Positions 6,865-51,985 of a stretch of DNA of 64,000 nt are shown piece after piece. Both the position numbers and the translations under genes were made by a program. Below the pieces are notes generated by a model. That model searched no databases. It saw nothing but the letters and a program-made list of their open reading frames with translations, and was not told where the DNA came from. How positions within the stretch are numbered: position 1 is the stretch's first letter; each line of letters opens with the position of its first letter. Source of the DNA: a phage; the sequence record PX441839.1. One strand, written 5' to 3'.

Positions 6865-6883
6865 TTGATATTACAGGTGGTAT

Positions 6884-10637: not shown

Positions 10638-10646
10638 TGTAAACAA

Positions 10647-10676
10647 TAGCCCCTACTAAGGGGCTATTTTACTTTT
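10647..10676 (+). terminator. Rho-independent terminator
   Basis: TAGCCCC-TACTAA-GGGGCTA hairpin followed by TTTT. Confidence 0.6.
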
Positions 10677-10687
10677 GAGGAGACAAA

Positions 10688-13186
10688 ATGATACCTTTCC
10701 CATTATTAGGTGGAAAATCACCAACTCCACCACCGCCACTTCCAAAGGGCGTTTCTGGGTACTCAGGAACTACCTACATAGGTGAAGATGGTGAAACTTG
10801 GTCTTGGAACAGGCAACTGGAGAGATGGATTAAAAAAGATCCGTTTCCAGTTGACGAAGGGCATCCTGAACACTTCATGGTGGGGCCTGCAAAGATAGGC
10901 ACAGATGGTTCTTTCCGATACTTCAATACTGTAACCAACGCTTGGGAAGATGTTCCTAACGGGAGCACCTTGGGGATGGTCCCTCTGACCCTGACAGATG
11001 AAGGCGTAAACATAGGGACATCGGTATTTGTAGAGTATCCCATTTATCAATCCGCTGGGTATGCCGTAGGTCTTGGAGGGTTCGCAAGACTGCTTGGGAC
11101 GGAGGTACTGGGAAGACCAGATCTTATGGACCTGTACCTTATAGGAAGAAGAGGGGATTTCTTTTCACCTTCTCCTGCAAACCCTGACTCCACCAACGCA
11201 ATTCTCGTAATTCGAAATGTTAAAAGGGATAGGGTGTGGAATACTTACCTGAACATGGTTGTGGAAACAAGTGATGGGGAGATGTGGGCTTGGGGAATGA
11301 ACTTCTATAATCAGTACGGCCCTTGGATAAGAAGCGGAGTAACAAGTTCCAGTCAACCACACATGAAGATAAACCCATTCTCTAAAATATCTGATTTTCC
11401 AGTACCACCTGAGAAAATAAAAGATATCTTCCCCGGTGTAACAATGGTCATAGTTGCAGACACTGACGGGAAATTCTGGTCCAAAGGGATTAACATTGGT
11501 CAGTTTAACGATATTGATGACCAAATTAGGACAGCCTGGGTAGAGATACCCGCAGATAGGTTCCCAGGGTTTAAAAAGTTTTATCGGAGTCTTAACGGAA
11601 CAGGTGCCGCCAATGATCTTGCTTACACCAACTGCGTTTGGTATTTGACAGATACAGGGATAAGACATTTTGGAAATGTGTATGGAGTGATGGACGGTTC
11701 CCCACTTGTATCTGCAACAACTAGGGATCTCCCTGACAGTAAAGTTCACTCAGCCCCTGTAGGATTGCCTGAAAGGAATGATGAGCCTAAAATAGTGAGT
11801 TTTTCACTGGCCAGATCTTCTGACTATATCCTTATTGCTGTTTGGTATGATGACCCCGAAGAGATGTATGTTGCCTATCCTACTTCTGGACTTATTTGGG
11901 ACCACGCAGATGGAGTAACGTATGGGAGGAGATTCAATAAATCCTCAGCCCCTGTAGGGAAGCATAGGAACCCCATACTGGACTTCAATAAAGAGGCCAC
12001 CCTTATAACGGGGTTTGATGGAAAATTCTATGCTTCTGGGACCCCAAGTGTAAATAACGGGCTATACTCAAGAACCAGCCCAACCACTTTTATCGACCAG
12101 AAGATGCCATCCTCTCTCGTTTATCAGGTTGAGCTATCCGACTCTGTAAACGGAAAAACTCAACTGTTGAGAAATGATAGGCGTTCTTTAATGATAGCCG
12201 ACCTTTCGGGAGGAAGCAACTACTTTGGAAATGGAACTTTCTGGAAACCAACTGCAACGATTAAGTGGCCTGACTATCCAGACGCAATTCCAATAGTGTT
12301 CAAGAATGATGGTGTCACTATCTCGGGATCTGCTGAAAGGGTAGATACGTTTTGGGGGTGGAATGTTAGCAACTACAACACTGTCAGCAGTACAGCCGGA
12401 GACCAGTACGGTGCTCCCAGTGGGGATGCTGTGCATGTCTCAGGGGAAGGGCACCTTACAATCTGGAAAGATGATAGCAGTATCCTTGTTGGTGGTTACA
12501 ACATAGGTGGAGTGTTTGGTGCTTTTAACCAGTGGAAGCAACCACAAGGTGCTGGAAGGTGGGTAGGCACAGTAAGAGAGTCTTTTACTGGCACATCGAC
12601 AGTAAGCTGCGGAACCACTATTGCTTGGGATGGAAAAGATCATTACATATTTGGCAAAAACTACTGGGATGTTGCAAACGGACAACCAGTAATAAAGTTC
12701 AGTTCCTCTGCACCTGTAAAATGGAACAGTAAACAGGGATACCCGAACCTCCCTAATTTTATAAAATGGATTCCTGCAATTATGGGATATTCTGATGACG
12801 AGGGTTCTTTGCAACAACCCTTCTTTATGTATCGGGGTACTGACGGTCTGTTTTATGCTGCGGGTAGCAATACAACAGGTGCCTTGGCGACAGGGACCCC
12901 ACCTGAGACAAGGGATGAGCAAAGATGGACTTTTGAGGTAATGAAGGGATCTGAGGTGTTTGTTGGTAAAAATGTTAAGGTTTACCACGGACACGGAAAT
13001 ACCTCTTGTTTGTTGTTCGCTTGCGAGGGAAAGGTGTACGGTGTTGGATTACCTAACAGTATGAAATGGAATGACACCGGAACCATCCCTGACCCGTTCT
13101 TCCCTGGTTTCAACAGAAGGCTTAATGAAATCACCTACCTGATGGATTTGCCGGATGTTATCTATACCCGACCAATAGAAGAATAA
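10688..13186 (+). CDS. Putative distal fibre / receptor-binding protein
   Basis: 832 aa ORF last in the fibre module, proline-rich N-terminus, W/G/N-rich body; assignment by context only. Confidence 0.35.
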   Translation: MIPFPLLGGKSPTPPPPLPKGVSGYSGTTYIGEDGETWSWNRQLERWIKKDPFPVDEGHPEHFMVGPAKIGTDGSFRYFNTVTNAWEDVPNGSTLGMVPLTLTDEGVNIGTSVFVEYPIYQSAGYAVGLGGFARLLGTEVLGRPDLMDLYLIGRRGDFFSPSPANPDSTNAILVIRNVKRDRVWNTYLNMVVETSDGEMWAWGMNFYNQYGPWIRSGVTSSSQPHMKINPFSKISDFPVPPEKIKDIFPGVTMVIVADTDGKFWSKGINIGQFNDIDDQIRTAWVEIPADRFPGFKKFYRSLNGTGAANDLAYTNCVWYLTDTGIRHFGNVYGVMDGSPLVSATTRDLPDSKVHSAPVGLPERNDEPKIVSFSLARSSDYILIAVWYDDPEEMYVAYPTSGLIWDHADGVTYGRRFNKSSAPVGKHRNPILDFNKEATLITGFDGKFYASGTPSVNNGLYSRTSPTTFIDQKMPSSLVYQVELSDSVNGKTQLLRNDRRSLMIADLSGGSNYFGNGTFWKPTATIKWPDYPDAIPIVFKNDGVTISGSAERVDTFWGWNVSNYNTVSSTAGDQYGAPSGDAVHVSGEGHLTIWKDDSSILVGGYNIGGVFGAFNQWKQPQGAGRWVGTVRESFTGTSTVSCGTTIAWDGKDHYIFGKNYWDVANGQPVIKFSSSAPVKWNSKQGYPNLPNFIKWIPAIMGYSDDEGSLQQPFFMYRGTDGLFYAAGSNTTGALATGTPPETRDEQRWTFEVMKGSEVFVGKNVKVYHGHGNTSCLLFACEGKVYGVGLPNSMKWNDTGTIPDPFFPGFNRRLNEITYLMDLPDVIYTRPIEE

Positions 13187-29801: not shown

Positions 29802-30631
29802 CAAAGTTTAGCAGGTTCGTTAATCCTGCCCACACCATTACGTGTTGCCATACGGTTTCCCGTAGGATCGGACTATATCACCACCCTTTTCAGGGTGCTC
29901 CCCATTTCGACGCCACTTGGTCGCCTACGCCTCTCGGCTAGTCTCTGAACGTTAAGACCACGTATACTTCTCGGAAATATGCTTCCACTGCCGACGCTGC
30001 TTAATGGCTCGTACTGTTGCATAGGGGAATCCCATGTCGCGTACCTCTGCCTGGCTCATTCCGCTTTCAAGAAGCTGGCAAATGGTCATCACTTCGTCTT
30101 CTGTGAGGGCACTATTAGCATTGTTGATACCTTCCGCGCTGCGACAGTTGTGGCGATAGGCGTTCTCTATGTTTTTGCCTCTCGTAACCCACTGTAGGTT
30201 GTCTTTGTGGTTATTCCTTTTATCGGGCCACTTGTGATCAACCTCTGGAAGATTGTTCGGATTGGGAACAAAACATTCTGCCACCAAAACATGGACCGCC
30301 TTTGTCGTCGCCTTTTTGTTAAGGTAAAGACTGACAATTGCATACCCTCTTCCATTATCAACATGCTTCATAGGTTTACCTCGACGACCTATAATGGTCC
30401 CGTCCTCGTAAACTTTATATCCGAAATAGTCTTTGTACTCCACGTAGTCCTCTTCGCTGCTGATTAACATAGCTGCACTTTAGTTTATTATTAACCCAGT
30501 GTCAACCTTAGCCTTCCAGCAATTAAAGGAGTTTTCGATGTAGGTTGCCCTACAAAGCCACAATGTTACTTATGGTAATAGATAATACGACGAACTCCCT
30601 CGTCATACCATCCCTTCTTGACCAGTTGCCA
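29802..30631 (-). mobile_element. Group I intron in the DNA polymerase gene (boundaries approximate, about +/-6 nt)
   Basis: On the transcribed strand: P-like AATTGCTGGAAGG, R-like GTTCAGAGACTAGCC, S-like GATATAGTCC, terminal G before exon 2; contains an HNH ORF. Confidence 0.55.
29952..30470 (-). CDS. HNH homing endonuclease (intron-encoded)
   Basis: VHVLVAECFVPNPNNLPEVDHKWPDKRNNHKDNLQWVT His-Me finger signature; paralog of the ORF in the second intron. Confidence 0.65.
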   Translation of the reverse strand: MLISSEEDYVEYKDYFGYKVYEDGTIIGRRGKPMKHVDNGRGYAIVSLYLNKKATTKAVHVLVAECFVPNPNNLPEVDHKWPDKRNNHKDNLQWVTRGKNIENAYRHNCRSAEGINNANSALTEDEVMTICQLLESGMSQAEVRDMGFPYATVRAIKQRRQWKHISEKYTWS

Positions 30632-32899
30632 GTGAAGCAAGATTCCAACCAGGTCAAATAGTGCTGCACCACCATTCTGCTGAAATGCGTTCAACAGGGA
30701 GTGCTTTGAACGAGTCCAAATCTTACGCCCATCCAAACCATAGATGAATCTTTTCCCTGTCGCTTCCCAGAATTTCTCCAGCGCTTCTTTACGACCTTTT
30801 AATCCGATGTTGCTATCCCAGAATGCGTTGATTACATCCTGTGCCTTATCTACTGTGATTCCAAGCATGGATGCAATCTTGGGTGCCTGAGCGCCGTACA
30901 TGATTCCATACGTGATACTCTTTCCCTCGCCACGAGAAACCTTCTTCCCCGCTGCCTTTGTGTATGCCTCTGCGTTTCGGGTGTGGGCGTCCCCCGACTC
31001 CATGATTTCAAGGTAAGCGCCACCATCGAACTCATACGCACCCCAAGCCGCAATCATACCTTCCAGGTTAGAACCATCAATACCCACTTGGTACTTACCC
31101 TTTGGTGCTCGCCAAAGGGAACGCATCTCATAACCAAACAACACCTTCGGATCAGGCTTAGGCATGTTTGCGCAGATCGTGTGCTTACGACGCCCAGTGT
31201 TGGTAATCCCTGAGAACCTTGCTGGTAATCGACCATCAATCTTCAAGCGTGGGTGGTTAAGAAGTCCAGTATCAACCTTATCCTCTTTCAGTGGATCAAG
31301 GACAGATCGTCGGTTACGTGCAGATAACCACTGAACAATGCCTTTAGCCATCGCACCATCCACCTTTTCCAAGTTTGGGCACAATCCCTGCTGGTCTTTC
31401 AACTGAGGGCTTGTTGGCAATGCACGGGCCTTCTTACGGAAGAATTTGAACATCTTCTCCTTGTCTGCCCACTGCTTAGGGGTAATGTGCAAGTTCTTAA
31501 GGATAAGATCACGATATTCTGTCTGATCTAGTTGCTCAATATACTCCCGCACAATTGCATCAACTTCACCATCCGGACGTTGCTTTTTAAACTGGTCCTT
31601 TGTTGCATCCTTTGTACGCCAAATTGTTGGAATCCAACCCGCATCTCGGATGAGGAACTTCTTAACATCATCCTGGTTACCGATACGCATCGGAATCATT
31701 ATATCTGGCATGGTCTTATTCTTCAAGTCCGCCAAAGCCCGTGCCATATCCTCTGGAGGTAGTGGCTCCAGTGTGGATTGTTTTTCGTTCTGACTACGAA
31801 TGAACTGAGGCATTTGATCCTCATCTTCCACCCCGTGGTCATTACAGTATTTAATAGCCGCAGCCGTAAGTGAACCATCTGCCTTAAATGCTTTAGCCGG
31901 AGGCCCCTTGAAATCAAGGGCTTCCCAATTAATATTGTATCCTAACTTCTCCAGCCATTTCCAACCTGTGCCGGACAATGTCCCGTCACCCTTGAAAGGT
32001 TTGGATGGGAAAGTTGGTTGTGCGGATTTAGCCATCTCTTTCTTCGGAAGCTGAGGCTCAACCTCTTCCTCAATCTTCTTCATGAAGGCATCAACCGTAT
32101 CGCGGAGTTTCAGCGCCGCCTCTATGTCAAAATCAACACCTTGGATTTCTTGCTCAATCATCAGGTAATCGGTAAGCATACCTCGACGAAGAGAGTCTTT
32201 CCAGTTGATCATTTTATATTTTGTTGGGACACGCTCATCTTTAAACATGAAGCGTTTATCATCTGGGTACGCATCGCAGGTGATTTCCTTCATAAGGGCG
32301 TCCCACACCTTTTCGTTGATGATAACGTCCTCAATGATACGGTCACAATACTTCCACAACGGGAGTCCACGCCAATCATCAATGGCGACTTTCAGGTTGG
32401 CTACTCTCATACCCCATGCTTCCAGACCATGAGGGCCAACAGGTTTCATCTTTCCTGTGACAGGGTTTTTAACCATTTCTGGGCAACCCTTCGGCAATGG
32501 GCGGTCAGGGTAGAGTGTACGAGACATAGACAAGGAGTCAAACAGGTTAACCTGTTTTCCATTGATCGTTCCCATGCACTTAGGATCGGCAAACATATCG
32601 TATTGTGTACCGAACAGCTTCTTGAACAGACGTAAGTCATATCCAAACAAGTTGTGAATAACAATGCTACTAGGGACTTCTGTGAACCATCTATTAAGGT
32701 CAGAGAAGTTCATTACATGCAGATTGAATCCCTTCGCATTAACGAAGTTCAAAGCCTCTTGATAACCCTCTCGCGCTGGGTCCATGAAGAGATACCAGTT
32801 ATCCTTTTTGTACTCCTTGAAGAGGATGCAGTGAGCATGTAAGTTCTCCTCGTCAAGTAAACCAGATGCTTCCGCATCACCTACCCATAAACCTTTCAT
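30632..32899 (-). CDS. DNA polymerase (family A, T7 gp5-like), exon 1
   Basis: Exo I GDAEASGL; motif A IDGSNLEGMIAA; motif B RGEGKSITYGIMYGA; the ORF-track C-terminal 21 codons (30566-30631) are interpreted as intron read-through. Confidence 0.75.
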
Positions 32900-36787: not shown

Positions 36788-37258
36788 TTAGAAAGGTGGT
36801 TGGTCATCCCAATCACTGTCGTCTTCCACAACCTCAGGTGTGACTTTAGATTCTTCCGGTTTGGAATCCTCTTTAATCTCCATCTGCTGTGGTTCAATGT
36901 CATCTTCATCATCAGGGATATCGTCTTCCTTGAGATCAGATAGACCTTTCTCCGAGTTCTCTTGTGATAATGGCTGCATTTTACCAACAGCCTTCTCAAC
37001 ATAATGTTCAGAACTTGGATCATCTTCTGGATGAATCGCATACCACTCTCGAAGAGTTTCATATGGACTGTCCAAGAAGCCTTCTGGCGGTTCTAAGTAA
37101 TCACCTGTGTCAATATCATAGAACACAGGGAACTTCCCGCTACGCCCGTGCTTACGGTCATCTAGAATTACAAACCAAGAGGTATTTCGCTCTTTCATTG
37201 GCAACTCTGGATCTTTGTTACGCTCAATACCCACCATAAAATAAGTGTTCTTTTTGTC
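36788..37258 (-). CDS. Primase-helicase (T7 gp4-like), exon 2
   Basis: Begins DKKNTYFMVGIERNK...DDRKHGRSG...YDIDTGDYLEP (helicase C-terminal motifs) and ends in an acidic tail DDSDWDDQPPF with terminal Phe, as in T7 gp4. Confidence 0.55.
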   Translation of the reverse strand, partial: DKKNTYFMVGIERNKDPELPMKERNTSWFVILDDRKHGRSGKFPVFYDIDTGDYLEPPEGFLDSPYETLREWYAIHPEDDPSSEHYVEKAVGKMQPLSQENSEKGLSDLKEDDIPDDEDDIEPQQMEIKEDSKPEESKVTPEVVEDDSDWDDQPPF

Positions 37259-38123
37259 CAGTGGGTTCGCTACTCCCACCCGGTGCGATTCCTGGCACCC
37301 GCCTACACTTTCGTGCAGGAACAGACTATATCATCACCTTTCGGTGCTCTCCGCTTCGGGACCGCTTGGCCCTAACGCCTTTCGGCTAGTCGTTGAGGTT
37401 TTTGCACGTTCTGGGTACATCTTCCAAGAATACAAGTCCCCGACCTCTTTCCAATCCCTTCGGGAGCGGATATTGAGGACTGCTGACCTTGTTACAGGTA
37501 ATCCACTATTATCGACAATCTTCTGCGCTGACCAACCCTCAGAAAGAAGCCTACAAATTTTGTGAACCTCTGCCTCTGTGACTTTGGACCTGTAATGATC
37601 CTCTCCCCTCTTTGGAAGCTTATTGGCAATAGAGTGCTCAAGATTTTGCCTACCAGTGACCCATTCCAGGTCATCTTTGTGGTTAAATTCCTTGCCTCTT
37701 TTATGATTAACTTCGGGTAAGTTCAGCGGGTTTGGAATATAAGTCTTAGCTACCAACCTGTGAACATACTCGGGCGTTCTCTTACCTTTAAGTATCACAT
37801 TGACAAAATAATACCCTGTACTCTTGTTTCGAATGTTCTTCAAAAATTTATTTGTGAACAAACTAAATACCTTGCCATCTTCTGTTACAAGATATTTACT
37901 ACCCTCTTCTATTGGTATCATGTTTCCCCCTTCTTTATTCTAACAAAAGGGTATAATACACAAAAGAATTTGAATATGCAACTTACCTGCTGATTACCCA
38001 ATCCTCTGTCTTTTCAAACATTCACGCCCACCCTTACGGGTCACGTTGTAGTGCCAGAGGCTCTAAGGGCTTCCCAGCAATTCAAAGAGTTTTACATGCG
38101 CTAAATCAACGCATCATCGCACG
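37259..38123 (-). mobile_element. Group I intron in the primase-helicase gene (boundaries approximate)
   Basis: P-like AATTGCTGGGAAG, R-like CAACGACTAGCC, S-like GATGATATAGTCTG on the transcribed strand; core clearly related to the polymerase intron; contains an HNH ORF. Confidence 0.5.
37334..37921 (-). CDS. HNH homing endonuclease (intron-encoded)
   Basis: YVHRLVAKTYIPNPLNLPEVNHKRGKEFNHKDDLEWVT; paralog of the ORF at 29952-30470. Confidence 0.65.
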   Translation of the reverse strand: MIPIEEGSKYLVTEDGKVFSLFTNKFLKNIRNKSTGYYFVNVILKGKRTPEYVHRLVAKTYIPNPLNLPEVNHKRGKEFNHKDDLEWVTGRQNLEHSIANKLPKRGEDHYRSKVTEAEVHKICRLLSEGWSAQKIVDNSGLPVTRSAVLNIRSRRDWKEVGDLYSWKMYPERAKTSTTSRKALGPSGPEAESTER

Positions 38124-39644
38124 AGAACCTGCAAACTGTGCCGACTGAACCTGACCACCAAATTCATGGGGTTTTCCAGATTCCGGTTTGTTCAAGTGAC
38201 AGAAACAATAATATGTGAAACCTAAGTCCTTTGCAAGGATAGAGATCTCATCTGAAAATCGTTCCAGTTCTGTGTTAGCATCACCTGGTGACATACCTTG
38301 CACAAGTCGAGTAATTGGGTCGATAATAATATCTTCACAACCCTCCACCAAGACTGCGTGGCGGATTGCACCCTTCACCTCGTCCCATACTGCACGACCA
38401 TAGTTGGAATAATAAATGATCTTATCGCCAACATAATCTGTAGCTTGGATTAGTTCTTCATGCTTGAAGTATCCACGTTGTCCTTCAAAGATTTCGTTAC
38501 CCCAAACATCTCGGTAAGTCCCATCTTCCTGAGGGATCATTACCTTTTCTGCGTTAATGAAGTCCTTGTGGTAAATTTTACCTGCAACCTTCTTACAAGT
38601 GATGTCGTTCTCTTCTTCAAACTTAAAGATACCGACTTTCTTCTTGTCTTTTTCAATGATGTGCTCGACAAGTTGGTTAACAAACTCGGACTTACCGATC
38701 TTAACACCTGCACCAAGGAAGTATCCCTCTCCTTTACGACGACCCAGTGTCAACTTGGTCATGGTAGGCCAAGGCCATGATTTACCAAGTTTTGGAATCT
38801 CGTGCGCTTTGTCTCGAAATTGTGCATACGTAGAGAAACCTTCTGGTACATAGTCCTTTGGCTTCATTGCTGCCCAGAATAATTGGTCAGCCATTCCCTT
38901 GATGTACATGTCGCATGGGTCCATGTCCTCTGGGATGTCAACAACCTTCATCTGAGGAATTACTGAGTAAACCGCTGCAACAGCATCCTTACCTTTCATA
39001 ATCCCCTTGGCCTTTTCTGCCTCCGTTGCACGATCAGCATCAAAAGCTACAATAATCTCTTCAAACTTGTTCAGAAGCTTGTAGTTGTTCTTCTGAGCTA
39101 GGTTCTGCACGGCATTAGATGTGCCGTTGGAAATTGAGACCACCGTGAAGTTTGGTTTACGTGCATTTCCATCCTTAGATTTATACTTTTCTCGGAGAAC
39201 CTGCCACAACACTGCCGCATCGTACTCGCCCTCCGTGATAAAAATCATGCGACGTGAGGATTTATTTGCACCCTCCAGACCAAACAGGTCACAAGCGACA
39301 GATTGGAAACCAATCGTACTAAAGTGGCCCTTCTGTTGCTTAGGAATGGTCAGATCTCGCTTCTTAAAGCCGACGATCTTACCCTCCAGTGTGTAGGGAA
39401 AATAGTGCGCCTCTGGTGTCATCCCATCCTTGGCAGACAGCTTAGTCCTGATTCCAAAGCGCTCTGCCGTCTTCTGATCGATACCTCGCTCAGGGATGGC
39501 TTTAAATGGGTAAGTTTTTACATCTTCTACTGTTTCTTCAACCTTGTTCATACGACCACCCCCTACTGAACGAGATACCGATGCCTTCGGGTTCTTGTAC
39601 CCCGTCTTATAACCACCAAACAGACCTTCACCTAATGTGCTCAC
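38124..39644 (-). CDS. Primase-helicase (T7 gp4-like), exon 1
   Basis: TOPRIM FITEGEYDA; Walker A GAGVKIGKSEF; H3-like CHLNKPESGKPHEFGG; last few ORF-track codons (38106-38123) interpreted as intron read-through. Confidence 0.7.
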
Positions 39645-39804
39645 TCACCAATCTCCTTTACCATCGTTGCTACAAAAATGGTGTTTCCGTTACCATTTAT
39701 ACCAACAGTGACCGGACCTGCGAGTTTGTAACCGTATCCGTACCACTTCTCGATAGTATCTTCAAGGACCTGCATGTTGGTGTAATTTAACAGTTTCACT
39801 TCCA

Positions 39805-40080
39805 TCAAAAACCTCCAGTTTCCTCGTTAAATGCACGATTTATTTGTGCATCACGAATTTGGGCCGAGATCTCAGAATAGATTACCTGCTCTGGAATGTC
39901 AACAAGGATCTTCTCTCCTTCGTCGAACACCTCAACAGAGATAATGTCGAGATAATCGCTGGCATCCCAATCCGATTGAGGATTCTTAATACCCTTGTGG
40001 AGCATAAACTCTACTTCAACAATGATCTCTTTAGCCATGTCTACGTTGAAATATGGAAAATCAATAGTTACTGTACGCAT
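39805..40080 (-). CDS. Hypothetical protein
   Basis: 91 aa ORF. Confidence 0.35.
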   Translation of the reverse strand: MRTVTIDFPYFNVDMAKEIIVEVEFMLHKGIKNPQSDWDASDYLDIISVEVFDEGEKILVDIPEQVIYSEISAQIRDAQINRAFNEETGGF

Positions 40081-41158: not shown

Positions 41159-42571
41159 TTAACCTCCAAAAATTTGTGGGAATGTTCTTTTATAAAAATC
41201 AGCCACTTGCTGGTCAACAATAATATCTTTCACCCGCAACGGCTTAGACAAACGCAGACCCTCTACACTTCGGGCACGAGACAGCATAACATATGTCTGA
41301 CCTGCTGTAAATGCCCCGTATCCAAGGTCAATATTAACCTTGTCTAAGGTTAACCCTTGACTCTTGTGTCCGGTAATAGCATAACCCAGTTTGAGTGGAA
41401 ACTGCAAGAACTTTCCGATCTCCTTATCCACAAGGCGGGTTGCCTCTACCTTCTTCTTGACGGTTTTCTTTGTCCCGTCAGGCATATCAACTTCCTCTTC
41501 CACCTCTTTCCAATAGGTCTCTGGAACCTGAATGTTGTTTTTCCACTCATTTCTTCCCAGCGTCACAGGGACACCGTCTACATTAACAACTACGAATGTA
41601 CGGGCAATACGGGATACAATTCCAACAGTCCCATTAACATATTGTGGCTCACCCTCCCCCTCTTTGGGGTTGTGGTTTACAGTAATCATTACCTTTAGCC
41701 CAACCTTCAAGCTTAAGGTTTCCTGTACCGGACGGTCAGGGAACTCTCCACTAATATGAGCTTGGAACTCATGAGCCTCTGCCTTAATTTTGGCAAACTC
41801 ACGAGCATTGATTGCCTCTGCCATCTTGTTTGTTGTGGTCAAGGTAACAGCATCCGCAAGAGGCGCTTTCCCAAAGCAACAGTTCTTATTGAGGAACTCT
41901 ACAGCTTCGTTTAAGTTCTTACCAACACGGATGTTGTTCAGATGGTTAGCATACACAGGGTCTGCCTGTCGGTGAACCTTCGGCAGATAGCAGTTCGTAA
42001 AGTTTAAAGAGTTCCATACATCACTTTCGAAAGGGATCTCATCTCCATATAGGCGACGGAATTCCGCAATTTCGTTACGAACCAGAACAGGCTTAATCTG
42101 GAACCCATCCCCAAAAGCGATGACCTGTAGGCCACCAAATGGCTTGTTAACTTTCCGATGGTGTCGGAGTTTCATATCCATCTCTTTCAACTTATCTCTC
42201 CGCACCATAGAGATCTCATCGATAACAAGAGCTTCTAGGGCATCGGAGGATAACAGCATCGCCGCCTTCCGAGATTTCGCCTTGTAGTCCTCGTCTGTCG
42301 TGATGCCAAAAGTAAGTCCAAAAGCCTTGTGGCAAGACATCCCCGCAATATTAAGTGCAGCAATCCCCGTTGGGGCAACGAACAAAAAACTCTCCCCAAA
42401 GAACTCCCTGAGAGACGAGATCATCATACTTTTACCAGAACCACCTGGTCCAGTGATGAACACATTCTCCCCTGCCATAATAGCTTCCATCCCTGCATCA
42501 TTTCCGATTACTGTTTTACTCACCAATATACTCCTCGATTTCGTCAGGGTAAAGGACGTATGTCTTTCCAT
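41159..42571 (-). CDS. SF1 DNA helicase, Dda/RecD/Pif1-like
   Basis: Walker A FITGPGGSGKS, Walker B LVIDEISMV, C-terminal VMLSRARS-type motif. Confidence 0.7.
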   Translation of the reverse strand: MERHTSFTLTKSRSILVSKTVIGNDAGMEAIMAGENVFITGPGGSGKSMMISSLREFFGESFLFVAPTGIAALNIAGMSCHKAFGLTFGITTDEDYKAKSRKAAMLLSSDALEALVIDEISMVRRDKLKEMDMKLRHHRKVNKPFGGLQVIAFGDGFQIKPVLVRNEIAEFRRLYGDEIPFESDVWNSLNFTNCYLPKVHRQADPVYANHLNNIRVGKNLNEAVEFLNKNCCFGKAPLADAVTLTTTNKMAEAINAREFAKIKAEAHEFQAHISGEFPDRPVQETLSLKVGLKVMITVNHNPKEGEGEPQYVNGTVGIVSRIARTFVVVNVDGVPVTLGRNEWKNNIQVPETYWKEVEEEVDMPDGTKKTVKKKVEATRLVDKEIGKFLQFPLKLGYAITGHKSQGLTLDKVNIDLGYGAFTAGQTYVMLSRARSVEGLRLSKPLRVKDIIVDQQVADFYKRTFPQIFGG

Positions 42572-42698
42572 CCACTAAGGATTCACATAAGTAACTTTGA
42601 ATGAATCCATCGTGAAAATCTAAAACCTTAAATACATGACCCGCCTTTGGGTGGTCGAGTCTGTCACTATAATCCGCCGTCAGATACACTTTCTTCAT
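42516..42698 (-). CDS. Hypothetical small protein
   Basis: ORF with internal start chosen to avoid overlap with the hydrolase gene. Confidence 0.3.
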   Translation of the reverse strand: MKKVYLTADYSDRLDHPKAGHVFKVLDFHDGFIQSYLCESLVDGKTYVLYPDEIEEYIGE

Positions 42699-43213
42699 TT
42701 TACCCTCTCTTTGTAAAATATGTGGTTTCCGATTATTACTGTTCTTACCATACTGGCTATCCAATAGGGCCTGATCTTCTTTGTATGGTAATGCGTAGAA
42801 CCATTCGTGAAATCATAAGATGAGTATACAGCAGGGTACTTGTGCAATGCAAGAATAAATTTGGATAATTTCTTTGCCTTCTCCCAAGTAGCTTTATCCC
42901 TGATCCGGTAATTCTTGCCGGAGTTTGCCCAAGAGAACTGGGAATCTTGATAAACAACACCTTTTACGGAATCTGGATATCTGTCCTTATCTTTTCTGTT
43001 GAGAGTTACAAAACCAACAGCGAGCATACCTCTCTCACCTTCACCAGATGCCTCTTTAAACATGTTACATGCAAGGGCATTGACTGCATTATCATTCTTC
43101 TTGCAGACGTGGACAACGGGTGGGTTTTTCGGTGCGTTCTCTTTAGCCAAAGCCGAGGCGGTGGATAGAGACAACGTACAGGCCAAAAGAATGGCGGTTA
43201 TCCGCTTCTTCAT
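42695..43213 (-). CDS. Secreted cell-wall hydrolase, SleB/CwlJ (Hydrolase_2)-like
   Basis: Signal peptide MKKRITAILLACTLSLSTASALA; EASGEGERGMLAVGFVTLNR...VKGVVYQDSQFSW matches the Hydrolase_2 pattern. Confidence 0.6.
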   Translation of the reverse strand: MKKRITAILLACTLSLSTASALAKENAPKNPPVVHVCKKNDNAVNALACNMFKEASGEGERGMLAVGFVTLNRKDKDRYPDSVKGVVYQDSQFSWANSGKNYRIRDKATWEKAKKLSKFILALHKYPAVYSSYDFTNGSTHYHTKKIRPYWIASMVRTVIIGNHIFYKERVK

Positions 43214-43271
43214 GAGGACTCCTAAAATAATAAAGGCCCAGTGTACTTAACTGGGCCAGTGTGTCAATAGC

Positions 43272-44690
43272 TTATCGCTTCATTTGTGAAAATAAATATG
43301 TTTTAGCTACCTTCGAGATACGGCTACCAACATCCTTCATAGTTAACCCCGAAGTCTCCAGTGTATCGTACTCCTCCTTGTAGATATCTGAGTTAAGCCA
43401 CTTTAAAAATTCACCAACTTTAGGCCCAAGTTCAACAGGGTCTTCGCCAAATACCTCAGTAAGGGCTTGGTCTAGTCGAGATTTGGTTAAAGCATACTCA
43501 ACAAACTTCTCCACAGACTCCAACTTCTCAGGGTCAACCGTCGCCAGTTTCTTCACCTTTGAAGACGAGTGTTTTTCACCCTTAACCTTAAACCATGTCC
43601 CAGAGTTCTTTGCAAGTTCCTTCTTAAGGGGTTTCCATACAACACCCTCACCAATACCAGTCACCCCAAAGAACTTACCGATGGGACAAGCGTCTTCAAC
43701 CTGGGTGGTGATCTCTACAAGCCGATTTGTTGATTTTTCAGGGTCATTGAAGTCAATAACCTCAGTGAACCAGCCAAAATCCATAGCATTGTAGACCTTT
43801 ATATGCGGTGCAGAGAGAGCCATCATTGAAATTGTATTCGTCCACTTCATCCCTTGATTATCTCGACCAAAAGCCACACCAATAATCATGAATGTTCGCT
43901 CAAGCTCAGATACGGCAACGCCCTTTTGAATGCCCTTCCCCATCCACTCACCAGCAATTTCGATAGGGTATTCTACAGGAATGCCTTTGGATCGTGCAAT
44001 GAACTTTGCTTGCTCAAAAAGGTGCTCTACTTGGACAATCTTCTTAGCGAAGAATTCAGCAAACCCGTTGTTGTCTGACACCAAAGGTAACAGTTTACGC
44101 TCTTTACTTTGGAAAGCGATCTCTCCATCAGCGTACTGAACGAAACTCCCATTTGTTCCGTGGGCCTTTACCGTACCAATGTACACCTCTTTTGCATCCG
44201 AAGGCATAGGTTTACGAATGACGTTTCCATCCTCATCCACACCTCCAAATGTCAGAGTATTCTGAACATTCTTAACAACATTTCGGAATTGACCCGTGGA
44301 GGGGTATTTAATAGCTGATTTGTCCACAGGTTCAGACTGCATAAGGTCATGTTGACCGGATACGATCCGAGATTTTAATTCTTCCCACATTTCAACTAGG
44401 TCTTCACCCGTGACAACCTCTTGAACCTTTTCCCCAACCAACTTGTAGGCGCTGTTACGAGTAATTGCGTACAGTTCACCATCTTTTGCGGCAAATCCGC
44501 AAACATAGGATGTTCGGATATCCGAAGAATCTCGGAATCGATTCCCCATATCCTTTTCCAAATTACCAAAAAGACAAATTGCCTTACTTCCTTTCAATAG
44601 ACCTTCCGTGACAATACCGAAGTCAACACTACCTTCAACACGGAGTTCCCCACAATAGCGACGACCTTCAATAATCTTATCCAATTTCAC
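43272..44690 (-). CDS. ATP-dependent RNA ligase-like nucleotidyltransferase (Rnl2-type motifs) with about 170-aa N-terminal extension
   Basis: Motif I KAHGTN (K-x-H-G-T-N), motif III IAGEWMGKG, motif IV GEGVVWKP, motif V WFKVKGEKH. Confidence 0.55.
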   Translation of the reverse strand: MKLDKIIEGRRYCGELRVEGSVDFGIVTEGLLKGSKAICLFGNLEKDMGNRFRDSSDIRTSYVCGFAAKDGELYAITRNSAYKLVGEKVQEVVTGEDLVEMWEELKSRIVSGQHDLMQSEPVDKSAIKYPSTGQFRNVVKNVQNTLTFGGVDEDGNVIRKPMPSDAKEVYIGTVKAHGTNGSFVQYADGEIAFQSKERKLLPLVSDNNGFAEFFAKKIVQVEHLFEQAKFIARSKGIPVEYPIEIAGEWMGKGIQKGVAVSELERTFMIIGVAFGRDNQGMKWTNTISMMALSAPHIKVYNAMDFGWFTEVIDFNDPEKSTNRLVEITTQVEDACPIGKFFGVTGIGEGVVWKPLKKELAKNSGTWFKVKGEKHSSSKVKKLATVDPEKLESVEKFVEYALTKSRLDQALTEVFGEDPVELGPKVGEFLKWLNSDIYKEEYDTLETSGLTMKDVGSRISKVAKTYLFSQMKR

Positions 44691-45183
44691 TCTCCTTTAA
44701 TACATACACGGTAACATCCCAATGAGATAGATTTTTATCAATCATCTTAGAGATAATTTTCCAATCACCTCCGGCAAGACCTGCACCAAGCTTAGGTAAA
44801 CCCACCCGAAGTTCATTTTTTGGTACGTCCAATAAACGAACCTTTCCGTGAAGAGATGCGTTCATCATTTTTAAAGCCTTGTCTAAGGCATCATAATCAA
44901 GGTCCATCTTCCCCTGTTTACGTAACCACCAACCAAACTGACCGTAGAGGTTGTACACAAGGGTTGCGGATTCGAAGCAAAAAGCCTCTGTTATAGTCCC
45001 TAGCTTACCTTGATCACCCTTCTTTGTGTTTTGATCAACGTAGTAAGCCTCTGGAAATGATTTTGCAATCAAGGGAGCAATCCCAGATTTCATAGTGTTG
45101 AAACAATTGCAGCAGTGAGCGATAACATCCACCTCTTTGTCTTTAGCTGCCTGGATAAGATCACCAACCTTGTATTTTATCAT
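44677..45183 (-). CDS. Macro-domain-like protein
   Basis: VGDLIQAA...VDVIAHCCNCFNTMKSGIAPLIAKSF resembles the macro-domain N-terminal signature; weak motif-level call. Confidence 0.4.
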   Translation of the reverse strand: MIKYKVGDLIQAAKDKEVDVIAHCCNCFNTMKSGIAPLIAKSFPEAYYVDQNTKKGDQGKLGTITEAFCFESATLVYNLYGQFGWWLRKQGKMDLDYDALDKALKMMNASLHGKVRLLDVPKNELRVGLPKLGAGLAGGDWKIISKMIDKNLSHWDVTVYVLKESEIG

Positions 45184-46492: not shown

Positions 46493-46548
46493 CTAAAAAG
46501 TCCTCACTTGTTACAATGAGGACAGATTACATGATCCTTTTTAAGTTG

Positions 46549-50365: not shown

Positions 50366-51286
50366 TCATACCACCTTTTTCAAATTCTTAACCAGGTCTG
50401 CAACTGACAATCCAGTTGTTGTCACCAACTCATTAAGGGCATGAGCAGCCTTTTCTTCGGCAAACTTGAGATTACCTGCCTCAATTGCCTTGGATTTGTC
50501 CATAATAACTGGAGACATGTTCTCTGTCAACTCCTTACCAGTGATAAAGCAACGCTTCGCTCGATATGCCGCCTTGAAATGAGCAAAGGAGATTGTAATC
50601 TCGTGATTATGCTTTGCCAAGAAGCGCAGTAGTCCCGCATATCTCTCAGCAATGATCACATCATCAGGAACAGAATTAACAATAACCTTCTCTTTAGGTG
50701 TGGCAGACTCCTGGTCCTCGACCACCTTTTCAACTTCCACCTTGTGATCCCCTAATCCATGTAATGTAATAGTTTCTTTTTCTTCGTTACGAATTTCCAC
50801 AAGTTCACCCTCTTCGTTGATTGCATATTCAAAATCTGGAATATATTTAGTTTTCAGGTATTCCATGTGTTCTGGAGACATATGCTCAAACATGGCTTTT
50901 ACGTATCTTTGCTCACCAGCCTGGATCGTTGCCTTTCGATCAACCTTATCGATAAGCTGGTCCTTGAGTTGATTAACCCGTTGTATGGCAACACAGACAT
51001 TGCCACGGACATAGCCCTTTTTATCATCGATCCTTTCAAGTGTTGGGTGCTCAGACTGATGGATACTCCCAACAGGGAATGGAAGATCAGTGTAGTCGCA
51101 ATTCCCTCTACCACAGAGCTTTTCTGCCAACATTTTTATGTCAGAGAGAGTGAGCGTAAATTCCAAGCCCCTGTCGTTTGCCTCTTTTCTTTTACGAGCC
51201 ATTCGGTTACGAAGGTACTCGCCATCTTCTCCGAAGATTTGTACAAAGTGACTTGAGCAGAAATTTTGGTGGTCTAATATTTGCAT
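50366..51286 (-). CDS. Hypothetical protein (306 aa)
   Basis: Long ORF, no confident motif. Confidence 0.4.
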   Translation of the reverse strand: MQILDHQNFCSSHFVQIFGEDGEYLRNRMARKRKEANDRGLEFTLTLSDIKMLAEKLCGRGNCDYTDLPFPVGSIHQSEHPTLERIDDKKGYVRGNVCVAIQRVNQLKDQLIDKVDRKATIQAGEQRYVKAMFEHMSPEHMEYLKTKYIPDFEYAINEEGELVEIRNEEKETITLHGLGDHKVEVEKVVEDQESATPKEKVIVNSVPDDVIIAERYAGLLRFLAKHNHEITISFAHFKAAYRAKRCFITGKELTENMSPVIMDKSKAIEAGNLKFAEEKAAHALNELVTTTGLSVADLVKNLKKVV

Positions 51287-51366
51287 TTTTAAATTACCTT
51301 GTTTGCTTGATGTAGCTATAATACTCCCTGTTTACCCTGTTGTCAACATCTAATTTCCTTCGGGTC

Positions 51367-51876
51367 TCAATTTTCAACTTCCACACCACCCCTTAAGGTT
51401 ACACCAGCCTCTTCAAGGGTTCGGGCAGGGTCTGCATGTCGTCCCGTAAGACCACTGATCAACCGTTCAGTTTTCCTATTCAAAACCTCCCTTACAACCT
51501 CTGGATTGATCTTTGGCATACACTCTCGGCGCAGACGTTTAGATTCTTCGTAAGCATCATCAAGAACACCTTGGATTTTCTTTTCAACTTCCAAGGAATC
51601 CATAGCATCTTTACACACGCAAGTGTGTCCAACAACATCATAATCCCCGTGATAAATGTATGGTTGCAGAGGGAGACCCCTGTTTCCACAGTACGCACAA
51701 ATAGGGGTTCCTCCGTCCATAATCATCAGAGTCTTTTTGGCACCACATTGGGAGTTCCAGTGATAACGGAAGTCTTCTTTTCCACAGTATCCGAAGCGGA
51801 AGTAATCTTTTGCACGGTCGTCAACATACTCTGGATAATTTTTCATATTTGTTCCTCTCGTCATTTGATTCAGCAA
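51367..51876 (-). CDS. Cys-rich (possible zinc-binding) protein, first gene of the leftward unit
   Basis: CAYCG...HTCVCKD motifs; directly downstream of a consensus promoter. Confidence 0.4.
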   Translation of the reverse strand: MLNQMTRGTNMKNYPEYVDDRAKDYFRFGYCGKEDFRYHWNSQCGAKKTLMIMDGGTPICAYCGNRGLPLQPYIYHGDYDVVGHTCVCKDAMDSLEVEKKIQGVLDDAYEESKRLRRECMPKINPEVVREVLNRKTERLISGLTGRHADPARTLEEAGVTLRGGVEVEN

Positions 51877-51904
51877 TACTAATCTATACCTTGCCGCATG
51901 TCAA
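51876..51904 (-). promoter_or_regulatory. Sigma70-like promoter for the leftward operon
   Basis: On the minus strand: TTGACA, 17-nt spacer, TAGTAT. Confidence 0.5.
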
Positions 51905-51928
51905 ACAATATTTTAAAGCTTAAGTGTA

Positions 51929-51957
51929 TTGACACCTTAAGAATATTGTACAATAAT
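51929..51957 (+). promoter_or_regulatory. Sigma70-like promoter for the rightward island (divergent from the previous one)
   Basis: TTGACA, 17-nt spacer, AATAAT; AAGGAG SD and ATG follow at 51975-51988. Confidence 0.45.
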
Positions 51958-51985
51958 GTCGTCACACAAACACAAGGAGAAACAG

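What the first reader, a model, noticed from the sequence alone, without database searches (positions are those of the whole stretch)
43272..45183. RNA ligase-like enzyme with a long N-terminal extension, adjacent to a macro-domain-like protein
The 472 aa protein has nucleotidyltransferase motifs of the Rnl2 type (KAHGTN, GEWMGKG, EGVVWK, KVKGEKH) preceded by about 170 residues of unknown function. The next gene, overlapping by 14 nt, looks like a macro domain. Macro domains process ADP-ribose derivatives, including ADP-ribose 1''-phosphate generated when a 2'-phosphate is removed from ligated RNA, so the pair could be an RNA repair module countering host anticodon nucleases, or the macro domain could reverse ADP-ribosylation. 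No kinase/phosphatase or Tpt1-like gene was recognised nearby.
Basis: partly seen in the sequence, partly recalled or inferred. Interest (0 to 1): 0.6.

Follow-up and report, generated by a model that had tools for sequence, protein, structure and literature searches.

The report
Phage RNA ligase fusion beside macrodomain
A V5-like (Vequintavirinae) phage encodes a distant T4-Rnl2-type RNA ligase that has swallowed a small neighbouring gene as an extra N-terminal domain. It sits just downstream of a macrodomain related to T4 Tk.4/AdfM, and the two look like separate counter-defence tools that share an operon, not one RNA-repair machine.

Summary
Both genes are real and sit at the stated coordinates. 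The window is a Vequintavirinae-type phage, 83% nucleotide identity to Salmonella phage SSBI34.

- **Ligase.** The 472-aa ORF is a distant member of the T4 Rnl2 family. All nucleotidyltransferase motifs are invariant, and it carries an Rnl2-type C-terminal helical domain.
- **N-terminal extension.** The true extra part is about 125 aa, not about 170. It is a DUF6957-like beta-rich module. In sister phages it is a separate small gene just upstream of a 345-aa ligase. Elsewhere it is fused to MazG pyrophosphatases.
- **Macrodomain.** The upstream 168-aa protein has a confident macro fold of the TARG1/BT1257/DarG/Poa1p group. It is a homologue of T4 Tk.4 (31% identity, hhalign 99.8%), which a 2025 preprint names AdfM, an anti-DarTG2 factor.
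- **Linkage.** The two genes are co-transcribed and overlap, but every gene in this run overlaps its neighbour. Comparative data show separable modules. The macro family occurs in 2769 phage records and the ligase family in 154. Their adjacency is confined to one lineage, and lineages lacking either the ligase or the extra domain exist.
- **Missing partners.** No Tpt1/KptA, sirtuin, 2H or Pnkp gene was found in the window.

The Appr-1''-p repair reading is therefore not supported. The domain fusion is the modestly new element.

The parts
44677..45183 (-). Stand-alone macrodomain protein (168 aa) of the Tk.4/AdfM-PHROG 335 family, in the TARG1/BT1257/DarG/Poa1p structural group
   Evidence: - phrog_335, E 7e-57.
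- PDB profile hits: BT1257 9e-19, SCO6735 7.5e-15, TARG1 6e-13, Poa1p 8e-11, DarG 1e-7.
- AF2 model pLDDT 93.7.
- Foldseek top hit TARG1, target-normalised TM-score 0.83-0.85.
- BLASTP to T4 Tk.4: 31% identity, E 8e-22. hhalign 99.8%.
43272..44690 (-). RNA ligase ORF (472 aa from the GTG; probably 470 aa from TTG 44684), made of N-domain + NTase + Rnl2-type C-domain
   Evidence: - ORF listing.
- PF09414, E 2.6e-8, 34.7 bits, above the gathering score of 27.
- phrog_548 RNA ligase, E 6e-61.
- TIGR02307, E 1.7e-10, covering model positions 27-320 of 326.
- Family profile against T4 Rnl2 2hvq, E 4.5e-11.
- AF2 model pLDDT 89.
44316..44690 (-). N-terminal extension (aa 1 to about 125): a DUF6957-like beta-rich module with five strands followed by two helices. 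It is a separate gene in sister phages.
   Evidence: - phrog_16099 and phrog_12555.
- It is a separate 110-135-aa ORF directly upstream of the ligase in PVP-SE1, 4MG, Av-05 and other phages.
- 75 relatives among 1.84 billion representative proteins.
- Family links to Pfam DUF6957 and fusions to MazG.
- Secondary structure from the AF2 model.
43551..44312 (-). Nucleotidyltransferase domain (aa about 127-380) with lysine nucleophile K175 and motifs I, Ia, III, IV and V
   Evidence: - Invariant residues: K175, H177, G178, T179, N180, G247, E248, E348, G349, K368, K370; K196 is invariant in 13 homologues and nearly invariant in 49.
- These align with T4 Rnl2 K35, R55, E99, E204, K225 and K227 (the T4 residue numbers come from my own knowledge).
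43275..43538 (-). Rnl2-type C-terminal all-helical domain (aa about 385-472)
   Evidence: - Helices 387-470 in the AF2 model.
- HMM alignments extend to T4 Rnl2 residue 306 and to TIGR02307 position 320 of 326.
- Invariant R405 and D435 align with T4 Rnl2 R266 and D292 (my own residue count).
44692..44697 (-). Shine-Dalgarno AAGGAG for the ligase, lying inside the 3' end of the macro gene
   Evidence: Sequence read directly. It is 7 nt upstream of TTG 44684 and 1 nt upstream of GTG 44690.
43235..43257 (-). Terminator-like hairpin (8 bp, 6 G-C pairs, followed by a T-run) directly after the ligase stop codon. It marks the end of the transcription unit.
   Evidence: Consensus scan. A second terminator-like site at 46500-46523 (-) bounds the unit upstream.

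Best explanation
This is the 3' end of an early transcription unit (about 46492 to 43272, minus strand) of a Vequintavirinae-type phage. It encodes two enzymes that work independently.

**1. The macrodomain.** It belongs to the Tk.4/AdfM family and is a TARG1/DarG-like ADP-ribosyl hydrolase. By homology, it most likely strips ADP-ribose that a host ADP-ribosyltransferase has put on nucleic acid. The best precedent is thymidine-ADP-ribose on single-stranded DNA made by DarT2.

**2. The ligase.** It is a distant Rnl2-family ATP-dependent RNA ligase.
- K175 is adenylylated.
- AMP is passed to a 5'-PO4.
- The 3'-OH then attacks, sealing nicks in structured or duplex RNA.
- With no end-healing enzyme nearby, its natural substrates are most likely 3'-OH/5'-PO4 breaks. 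Metal-dependent host tRNases of the Toprim or HNH type make such breaks.

**3. The N-terminal extension.** It is a gene fusion. A small DUF6957-like accessory protein, encoded between the macro and ligase genes in sister phages, has been joined to the ligase here. I infer that it serves as a ligase accessory module for substrate, nucleotide or pyrophosphate handling, or for regulation.

**Shown:** gene structure, homology, folds, motif conservation, the fusion history and the gene distributions.
**Inferred:** the substrates of both enzymes and the role of the N-domain.
For: **Phage identity.** 83% nucleotide identity to SSBI34, a member of Vequintavirinae.

**Ligase.**
- Profile matches.
- Structure matches.
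- Invariant catalytic residues.
- The relative SSBI34 has a separate DNA ligase.

**Fusion history.**
- The N-domain is a separate ORF in L003, L005, L008-L011, L019 and L086.
- It is fused in the window, in SSBI34, in ABPH49 and in several metagenomic proteins.
- It is absent in Mydo and KB57.
- The ligase is absent in L084 and L090.

**RNA-repair character of the ligase core.** Other members carry an N-terminal metallophosphoesterase instead (P0036, P0040).

**Substrate chemistry.** Toprim tRNases leave 5'-P/3'-OH ends. T4 Rnl1 and Rnl2 reseal a single such nick without end healing (PMC12445682; PMC12409363).

**Macro.**
- Family and fold.
- Homology to T4 Tk.4.
- Tk.4 = AdfM, required for T4 growth on DarTG2 hosts (bioRxiv 10.1101/2025.11.20.689424).

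**Independence of the two genes.**
- The macro family is in 2769 phage records and the ligase family in 154.
- A macro gene lies within 6 kb of the ligase in 17 of 80 IMG/VR loci. Thirteen of these are the same syntenic lineage.
- In the T4 stretch examined, tk.4 has no RNA ligase gene beside it.
Against: - The two genes are co-transcribed and translationally coupled.
- The N-domain gene sits immediately downstream of the macro gene even in lineages that lack the ligase (L084, L088, L089, L090). Some three-way functional link is therefore not excluded.
- Identity to Tk.4 is only 31%. The AdfM result is genetic, comes from a preprint, and concerns T4 only.
- TARG1 catalytic D125 aligns with A137. 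TARG1 K84 aligns with R88, which Tk.4 lacks. The chemistry is therefore unclear.
- The biological role of T4 Rnl2 itself is unknown.
- No activity was measured here.
Confidence: 0.6

Rival explanations
1. The macro, N-domain and ligase form one coupled cassette that repairs ADP-ribosylated or capped RNA. The macro removes ADP-ribose from an RNA end or 2'-OH placed there by a host toxin (for example 5'-phosphate ADP-ribosylation of the Tpt1/TRPT1 type). The N-domain recognises the end, and the ligase reseals it.
For: - Overlapping, co-transcribed genes.
- The order macro then N-domain then ligase is kept across roughly 50%-identity divergence in this lineage.
- The N-domain stays beside the macro gene when the ligase is lost and is fused to the ligase elsewhere.
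- Other family members lie near a NADAR (30.3) gene in Aeh1, a Pnkp in L098 and an RNA ligase in KIL1.
- TARG1-type macrodomains are reported to act on ADP-ribosylated nucleic-acid ends (my own knowledge; related paper PMC9458441 listed, not read).
Against: - All supporting synteny comes from one phage lineage and can be explained by shared ancestry plus deletions.
- Outside that lineage, 4 of 67 ligase loci have a macro gene within 6 kb. I expect roughly 2-3 by chance, given that 40-56% of medium and jumbo phages carry a macro gene (PMC9503650).
- In the broad N-domain family, the neighbours are replication and nucleotide-metabolism genes and the fusions are to MazG, with no macro or RNA-repair enrichment.
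- Every gene in this operon overlaps its neighbour, so the overlap is not specific.
Confidence: 0.15
2. The ligase repairs tRNA cut by an anticodon nuclease, leaving a 2'-phosphate. Tpt1 removes it with NAD+, and the macro domain (as a Poa1p-like phosphatase) detoxifies the resulting ADP-ribose 1''-phosphate.
For: - Poa1p is among the structural and sequence relatives: profile E 8e-11, Foldseek TM about 0.73.
- GenBank annotators call the family 'phosphatase'.
- Macro involvement in KptA-linked RNA repair has been proposed in general terms (PMC9503650).
Against: - The ligase is of the Rnl2 type, which needs no 2'-PO4 and leaves none (established knowledge; PMC7261155).
- Pfam detected no Tpt1/KptA, sirtuin, 2H, cREC or Pnkp in 38 window ORFs.
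- The macro is closer to BT1257, SCO6735 and TARG1 than to Poa1p.
- Its only NCBIfam hit is DarG.
- T4, which has the homologous Tk.4, repairs tRNA with Pnkp and Rnl1 and no Tpt1 (my own knowledge; the Pnk/Rnl1 part is stated in PMC12409363).
Confidence: 0.05
3. The macro domain degrades a soluble ADP-ribose-derived immune signal or toxin (for example a Thoeris-type cyclic ADPR isomer, or ADPr-1''P made by RES toxins), not a macromolecular adduct. The ligase is unrelated.
For: - Iyer et al. [quoted passage not shown]
- The relative SSBI34 also carries NAD-salvage-type genes, Prs and a phosphoribosyltransferase.
Against: The only experimental datum for this family, T4 Tk.4/AdfM, points to DarTG2, a DNA-modifying system. 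The nearest characterised structures (TARG1, DarG, SCO6735) act on macromolecular adducts.
Confidence: 0.15
4. The ligase acts in phage nucleic-acid metabolism and not in counter-defence. For example, it could seal nicks that have a ribonucleotide 3'-OH in RNA:DNA hybrids during replication or repair, as proposed for the Rnl5 enzyme DraRnl.
For: - The gene lies in a replication-rich block: PIF1/Dda helicase at 41159-42571, DnaB-like helicase at 38106-39644 and PolA at 30566-32899.
- Relatives of the N-domain neighbour replication and nucleotide-metabolism genes.
- Rnl5 and Rnl2 enzymes seal nicks whose 3'-OH strand is RNA (PMC7261155).
Against: - The ligase is dispensable in closely related lineages (L084 and L090 lack it) and patchy across phages (154 records). 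That pattern fits an accessory or counter-defence gene.
- The metallophosphoesterase fusions point to RNA end healing.
Confidence: 0.1

Closest known systems
T4 RNA ligase 2 (Rnl2 family; PDB 2HVQ, 2HVR, 1S68)
   Same: - NTase motifs I to V with the lysine nucleophile.
- An all-helical C-terminal domain, with the residues aligning to T4 R266 and D292 conserved.
- Best Foldseek hit and best sequence-profile hit.
   Different: - Only about 17-19% identity.
- 41 bits against TIGR02307, whose cutoff is 197.
- About 45 extra core residues before motif I.
- A 125-aa N-terminal domain that no characterised Rnl2 has.
Naegleria gruberi / Deinococcus radiodurans RNA ligase (Rnl5 family)
   Same: - An N-terminal module of about 125 aa placed before the NTase (126 aa and K170 in NgrRnl; about 125 aa and K175 here).
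   Different: - Rnl5 has no C-terminal domain, whereas this protein has the Rnl2 one.
- I could not show an OB fold for the N-domain.
- No sequence similarity was found.
- Here the N-domain is dispensable in most family members.
T4 Tk.4 / AdfM (anti-DarT factor Macrodomain)
   Same: - Homologous stand-alone phage macrodomain of the same PHROG, with shared motifs HxCNCF..M.SG.A, KLG, NLY.Q and P.IGAG...G.W.
- An early-gene location.
   Different: - 31% identity.
- Tk.4 lacks the WWLRKQG insertion.
- The genomic contexts differ: tk.4 lies between vs and tk in T4.
- Activity against DarTG2 has not been tested for this protein.
Human TARG1/OARD1, bacterial DarG, Bacteroides BT1257, Streptomyces SCO6735
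   Same: Same macro sub-fold. These are the best structural and profile matches.
   Different: - TARG1 D125 corresponds to A137.
- The TARG1 K84 equivalent is uncertain: it aligns with R88.
- DarG carries an extra C-terminal antitoxin domain.
Bacterial Pnkp/Hen1 and T4 Pnkp + Rnl1 RNA repair systems
   Same: A phage-encoded ATP-dependent RNA ligase, probably used to undo host RNA damage. Some family members are fused to a metallophosphoesterase, as in CthPnkp.
   Different: No kinase or phosphatase end-healing partner was found in this window. The ligase family is also different: Rnl2-like, not Rnl1 or Rnl4.
Pfam DUF6957 and MazG-DUF6957-like fusions (e.g. Caulobacter phage Seuss gp080)
   Same: Shared core motif D-x-KGRF-x-DG-x2-IRTS ... 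T-x-NS-x-Y.
   Different: - The window copy scores only 12 bits against DUF6957.
- The function of the family is unknown.
- The fusion partner here is a ligase, not MazG.

Membership tests
Rnl2 family RNA ligase | Covalent nucleotidyltransferase domain with motifs I, Ia, III, IV and V and a lysine nucleophile | tested here: met
   K175-x-HGTN, E248, E348-G-x-x-x-K and K368-x-K370 are invariant in 49 homologues; K196 is invariant in 13 homologues and nearly invariant in 49. They align with the T4 Rnl2 motifs. PF09414 scores above its gathering score.
Rnl2 family RNA ligase | Family-specific all-helical C-terminal domain following the NTase (PMC7261155) | tested here: met
   The AF2 model has helices at 387-470. 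The profile alignment reaches T4 Rnl2 residue 306 and TIGR02307 position 320 of 326. R405 and D435 are invariant.
Rnl2 family RNA ligase | Score above the curated equivalog threshold (TIGR02307, 197 bits) | tested here: not met
   41 bits, E 1.7e-10. The protein is a distant relative, not an equivalog.
Rnl2 family RNA ligase | Two-domain architecture that begins with the NTase | tested here: not met
   An extra domain of about 125 aa precedes the core. Most family members (about 345 aa) do meet this feature.
Rnl2 family RNA ligase | Seals 3'-OH(RNA)/5'-PO4 nicks through ligase-AMP and AppRNA intermediates | not testable with these tools
   This needs a biochemical assay.
Rnl5 family RNA ligase (NgrRnl/DraRnl) | N-terminal OB-fold module fused to the NTase, with no C-terminal domain | tested here: not met
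ATP-dependent DNA ligase | NTase followed by a C-terminal OB domain | tested here: not met
Macro domain superfamily | Macro alpha/beta fold with an ADP-ribose-binding cleft | tested here: met
   AF2 pLDDT 93.7. Foldseek gives 190 PDB hits at E<=1e-3, and all 50 listed matches have the macro fold (two are serine hydrolases designed on a macro scaffold); target-normalised TM-score is 0.83-0.85 to TARG1.
Macro domain superfamily | Pfam PF01661 gathering score (22 bits) | tested here: not met
   16.4 bits, E 0.009. Some homologues do carry PF01661. The PDB profile search is highly significant.
TARG1/DarG-type ADP-ribosyl glycohydrolase | Catalytic Lys (TARG1 K84 / DarG K80) and Asp (TARG1 D125) | tested here: inconclusive
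   In the HMMER alignment, K84 aligns with R88 and D125 with A137 (my own residue count). Tk.4 lacks the R88 segment. No structure-based superposition was available.
Tk.4/AdfM phage macrodomain family | Homology to T4 Tk.4 | tested here: met
   BLASTP E 8e-22 with 31% identity over 162 aa. hhalign 99.8%. tblastn hits T4 tk.4.
Tk.4/AdfM phage macrodomain family | Protects the phage against DarTG2 | not testable with these tools
   Genetic evidence exists only for T4.
Tpt1-linked RNA repair pathway (Trl1/Tpt1/Poa1p logic) | Presence of a 2'-phosphotransferase (Tpt1/KptA or sirtuin) and a ligase that generates a 2'-PO4 junction | tested here: not met
   No such Pfam family was found in 38 window ORFs. 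The ligase is Rnl2-like. The rest of the genome lies outside the window and could not be examined.
Pfam DUF6957 | Gathering score of 27 bits | tested here: not met
   The window N-domain scores 12.1 bits, E 0.16. The link is transitive: the small-family HMM hits the window at 5e-16, and 8 of 28 family members hit DUF6957 at up to 2.8e-5.

The most novel reading that the evidence does not exclude
The DUF6957-like module may be a portable accessory domain for enzymes that break the alpha-beta phosphoanhydride of an NTP and release pyrophosphate. MazG does this by hydrolysis, and the ligase does it in step-1 adenylylation.

In this lineage it would link the macrodomain and the ligase into a three-part cassette that first de-ADP-ribosylates and then reseals host-damaged RNA. 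That would give an Rnl2-like enzyme an Rnl5-style N-terminal helper domain, and would define a phage counter-measure to RNA-targeting ADP-ribosyltransferases.
Probability: 0.1. Interest if true: 0.75.

Novelty: new variant of a known kind. Interest (0 to 1): 0.35.

Why it matters
- **A candidate role for Rnl2-type ligases.** The biological role of T4 Rnl2-type ligases is still unknown. This phage lineage keeps one without any end-healing partner, which fits repair of the 3'-OH/5'-PO4 tRNA nicks made by newly described Toprim or HNH defence nucleases. The idea can be tested directly.
- **A handle on an uncharacterised domain.** The Rosetta-stone fusion identifies a small, uncharacterised but recurrent phage domain (DUF6957-like) as a partner of this ligase and of MazG enzymes. 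That gives a starting point for studying phage 'dark matter'.
- **A better annotation for the macro gene.** Recognising it as a Tk.4/AdfM homologue extends a very recent anti-DarTG2 finding to Vequintavirinae. It also corrects the 'phosphatase' label carried by many of the 2769 matching phage records.

Tried and rejected
1. **Word-indexed homologue search with the N-domain alone** found nothing. The exhaustive representative search was needed instead.
2. **GAF-domain relationship of the N-domain.** Multi-GAF sensor kinases appear and are GAF by Pfam. Per repeat, however, the scores are only 5-17 bits, and most fall on the inter-domain helix. I rejected this as probably spurious.
3. **OB-fold or Rnl5-like identity of the N-domain.**
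   - Foldseek alignments to NgrRnl are long (about 408 columns), but so are those to other multidomain ligases.
   - There is no sequence signal.
4. **Homology of the N-domain to T4 Vs**, the gene next to tk.4. The N-domain HMM found no hit on that T4 locus.
5. **The search for related loci with N-domain alignments** failed because no stretch was conserved enough. I replaced it with a back-translated DNA motif scan, in which 42 of 43 hits were true family members.
6. **Search for the sirtuin, cREC, kinase and MazG 'RNA repair' neighbourhood** described for V5 and Mydo (PMC9503650). It was not found in the window ORFs scanned nor around the Mydo ligase annotation.
7. **tRNA genes.** None in the window.
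8. **The PHROG label 'methyltransferase' for phrog_16099.** Pfam, NCBIfam and PDB give it no support.
Full report
**What the window is.** The region is 83% identical in nucleotide sequence to Salmonella phage SSBI34, a 141-kb member of Vequintavirinae (the 'V5-like' phages). Gene order is collinear. GC skew and ORF orientation show that the finding lies in a long minus-strand block of early and replication genes.

**Checking the observation.**
- ORF 43272..44690 (-) encodes 472 aa, and ORF 44677..45183 (-) encodes 168 aa.
- The macro gene is upstream of the ligase.
- The four quoted motifs sit at aa 175-180, 247-253, 348-353 and 368-374. Their key residues are invariant in an alignment of 49 homologues.
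- The AAGGAG ribosome-binding site is 1 nt from the GTG and 7 nt from an in-frame TTG two codons later. The real product therefore probably starts MDKIIEG, as annotated in SSBI34, and overlaps the macro stop codon by 8 nt rather than 14 nt.
- A strong terminator-like hairpin follows the ligase stop codon. Another lies near 46500. Together they bound a unit of five small ORFs plus the macro and ligase genes.
- The macro start also overlaps the stop of the ORF before it (ATGA). Overlap is therefore the rule in this operon and not a special mark of this pair.

**The ligase.**
- Pfam RNA_ligase (PF09414) matches above its gathering score, and PHROG 548 'RNA ligase' matches at 6e-61 over aa 127-466.
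- A single-sequence search of PDB finds nothing. A profile of the family hits T4 Rnl2 at 4.5e-11, across both the nucleotidyltransferase and the C-terminal domain.
- NCBIfam gives only TIGR02307 'RNA ligase, Rnl2 family', covering positions 27-320 of 326. The score is 41 bits against a cutoff of 197.
- The AlphaFold model is confident (pLDDT 89).
- The residues that align with T4 Rnl2 K35, R55, E99, E204, K225 and K227, and with the C-domain residues R266 and D292, are invariant or nearly so. The T4 numbering and the essentiality of those residues come from my own knowledge.
- The protein is therefore a distant Rnl2-family RNA ligase and not a DNA ligase. SSBI34 also encodes a separate DNA ligase elsewhere in its genome.

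**The N-terminal extension.**
- Most of the 1448 database relatives are about 345 aa long and begin at IKYPSTGQFRN, which is aa 127 here. The extra part is thus about 125 aa.
- The AF2 model predicts it with confidence as five beta strands followed by two helices.
- The same domain is fused to the ligase in SSBI34, in Acinetobacter phage ABPH49 and in several metagenomic proteins.
- In PVP-SE1, 4MG, Av-05 and other Vequintavirinae-like contigs it is a separate 110-135-aa ORF immediately upstream of the ligase. L086 shows the same arrangement.
- Mydo and KB57-type phages lack it.
- Contigs L084 and L090 keep macro then N-domain but have no ligase. The cell-wall hydrolase and PIF1 helicase follow directly.
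- This is a Rosetta-stone pattern. The domain is an optional partner of the ligase, and the fusion is real, because it is seen in independent genomes.

**The wider family of the N-domain.**
- An exhaustive profile search found 75 relatives, mostly small stand-alone proteins.
- The multi-GAF hits in that list are weak matches to linker helices, and I discount them.
- A minimal form of 58-96 aa carries the motif D-x-KGRF-x-DG-x2-IRTS...T-x-NS-x-Y.
- A back-translated motif scan of IMG/VR recovered 42 true members among 43 hits.
- Of 28 longer proteins carrying the domain, 8 match Pfam DUF6957, 5 match the Pfam MazG family and 3 match MazG-like. One example is Caulobacter phage Seuss gp080.
- The neighbours of the broad family are replication and nucleotide-metabolism genes, with no macro or RNA-repair enrichment.
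- Anecdotal neighbours include a NADAR (30.3) homologue in Aeh1, a T4-type Pnkp in L098 and an RNA ligase in KIL1.
- No fold assignment or known function could be obtained.
- MazG and ligase step 1 both release pyrophosphate from an NTP, and the N-terminal OB module of Rnl5 ligases orients that leaving group (PMC7261155). A comparable helper role is therefore an attractive hypothesis, but it remains untested.

**The macrodomain.**
- Pfam Macro is sub-threshold, but PHROG 335 matches at 7e-57.
- A family profile hits BT1257 (9e-19), SCO6735, TARG1, Poa1p and DarG in PDB.
- The model has pLDDT 93.7. Its best structural matches are TARG1, BT1257, Poa1p and DarG.
- The only NCBIfam hit is the DarG antitoxin, and the same is true for T4 Tk.4.
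- The protein is a homologue of T4 Tk.4: BLASTP 8e-22 with 31% identity, and hhalign 99.8%.
- A 2025 preprint shows that tk.4 is the single T4 gene needed to grow on a DarTG2 host, and renames it adfM.
- The TARG1 catalytic pair is not obviously conserved. D125 aligns with A137, and K84 aligns with R88, which Tk.4 lacks. The chemistry therefore remains open.

**Are the two genes one module?**

For a link:
- co-transcription and overlap;
- conserved order within the lineage;
- the N-domain's double association, with the macro gene and with the ligase.

Against a link:
- The macro family occurs in 2769 phage records and the ligase family in 154.
- In the T4 stretch examined, tk.4 has no RNA ligase gene beside it.
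- Among 80 IMG/VR ligase loci, a macro gene lies within 6 kb in 17. Thirteen of those are the same syntenic lineage.
- The remaining 4 of 67 are close to what chance predicts, given that 40-56% of medium and jumbo phages carry a macro gene (PMC9503650).
- The Appr-1''-p logic needs Tpt1/KptA and a ligase that generates a 2'-PO4 junction. The ligase here is Rnl2-like, and Pfam scans of 38 window ORFs found no Tpt1, sirtuin, 2H or Pnkp.
- The window has no tRNA genes.

**Most likely mechanism.**
- The ligase reseals 3'-OH/5'-PO4 breaks in structured RNA.
- Toprim defence nucleases such as P2 OLD and PARIS AriB leave exactly such ends. T4 Rnl1 and Rnl2 reseal a single OLD nick without end healing (PMC12445682 and PMC12409363). 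This would explain a ligase that has no kinase or phosphatase partner.
- Family members fused to a metallophosphoesterase (P0036, P0040) show that the same core is used with end healing elsewhere.
- The macrodomain most likely removes ADP-ribose from host-modified nucleic acid, with DarT2-modified DNA as the best precedent.
- These substrate assignments are inferences from homology. Nothing was measured here.

**Verdict.** The annotation as RNA ligase plus macro domain is sound and largely already present in GenBank records, as 'RNA ligase' and 'putative phosphatase'. The proposed Appr-1''-p repair coupling is not supported. The modestly new element is the fusion of a DUF6957-like accessory gene onto an Rnl2-like ligase, together with the modular macro / N-domain / ligase cassette in this phage lineage.

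Noticed in passing
window 29849-30581 (-), with ORF 29952-30470 (-) inside it: Rfam finds a group I intron (RF00028, 54 bits against a gathering score of 50) starting 15 nt before the stop of the PolA-like ORF 30566-32899. An HNH endonuclease ORF (PF13392) lies inside it. A plausible downstream exon of about 100 aa, ending ...GEYLTGLNWGQCH, is open in another frame. The DNA polymerase gene appears to be split by a mobile intron.
   Followed up: partly
L084 (3439-4396) and L090 (2970-3839), metagenomic relatives: In these syntenic contigs the macro gene is followed directly by the stand-alone N-domain gene, and the ligase is missing. The SleB-like hydrolase and PIF1 helicase come next. The N-domain therefore persists beside the macro gene without the ligase.
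   Followed up: partly
P0036 and P0040 (L013: IMGVR_UViG_3300004634_000001): The same ligase core carries an N-terminal calcineurin-like metallophosphoesterase (PF00149) in place of the DUF6957-like domain. This is a heal-and-seal fusion.
   Followed up: partly
L099 2251-3237 (Caulobacter phage Seuss gp080) and L141 3551-4540: The DUF6957-like module is fused to the C-terminus of MazG-type nucleotide pyrophosphohydrolases. Of 28 longer family members, 5 match the Pfam MazG family and 3 match MazG-like.
   Followed up: partly
L101 2950-4138 (Aeromonas phage Aeh1): A 185-aa protein with the DUF6957-like module at its N-terminus lies two genes upstream of the 30.3 homologue. In T4, 30.3 is the NADAR protein AdfN, an anti-DarTG1 factor.
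   Followed up: no
window 42695-43213 (-): The gene just after the ligase terminator is a SleB-type cell-wall hydrolase (PF07486, 4.8e-23). It has an N-terminal signal-like hydrophobic segment, MKKRITAILLACTLSLSTASALA. It is probably the endolysin, placed among the early genes.
   Followed up: no
window about 13200 and about 51900: GC skew and ORF orientation flip at both points. The flips bracket a minus-strand early/replication block of about 39 kb. Several strong sigma-70-like promoter matches (11 of 12 positions) cluster at 50500-51960 in both orientations.
   Followed up: no
Pseudaeromonas phage KLEP7 (H24, P0076): The ligase of this family is interrupted by an intein with a LAGLIDADG domain in that phage (707 aa).
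   Followed up: no
SSBI34 record 6123-11305 and 37233-39995 (L093; outside this window): The closest relative also encodes a CCA-adding tRNA nucleotidyltransferase and a second nucleotidyltransferase. It also carries ribose-phosphate pyrophosphokinase plus a nicotinate/nicotinamide phosphoribosyltransferase, which are NAD-salvage-type genes. These may bear on tRNA repair and on NAD-depleting defences.
   Followed up: no
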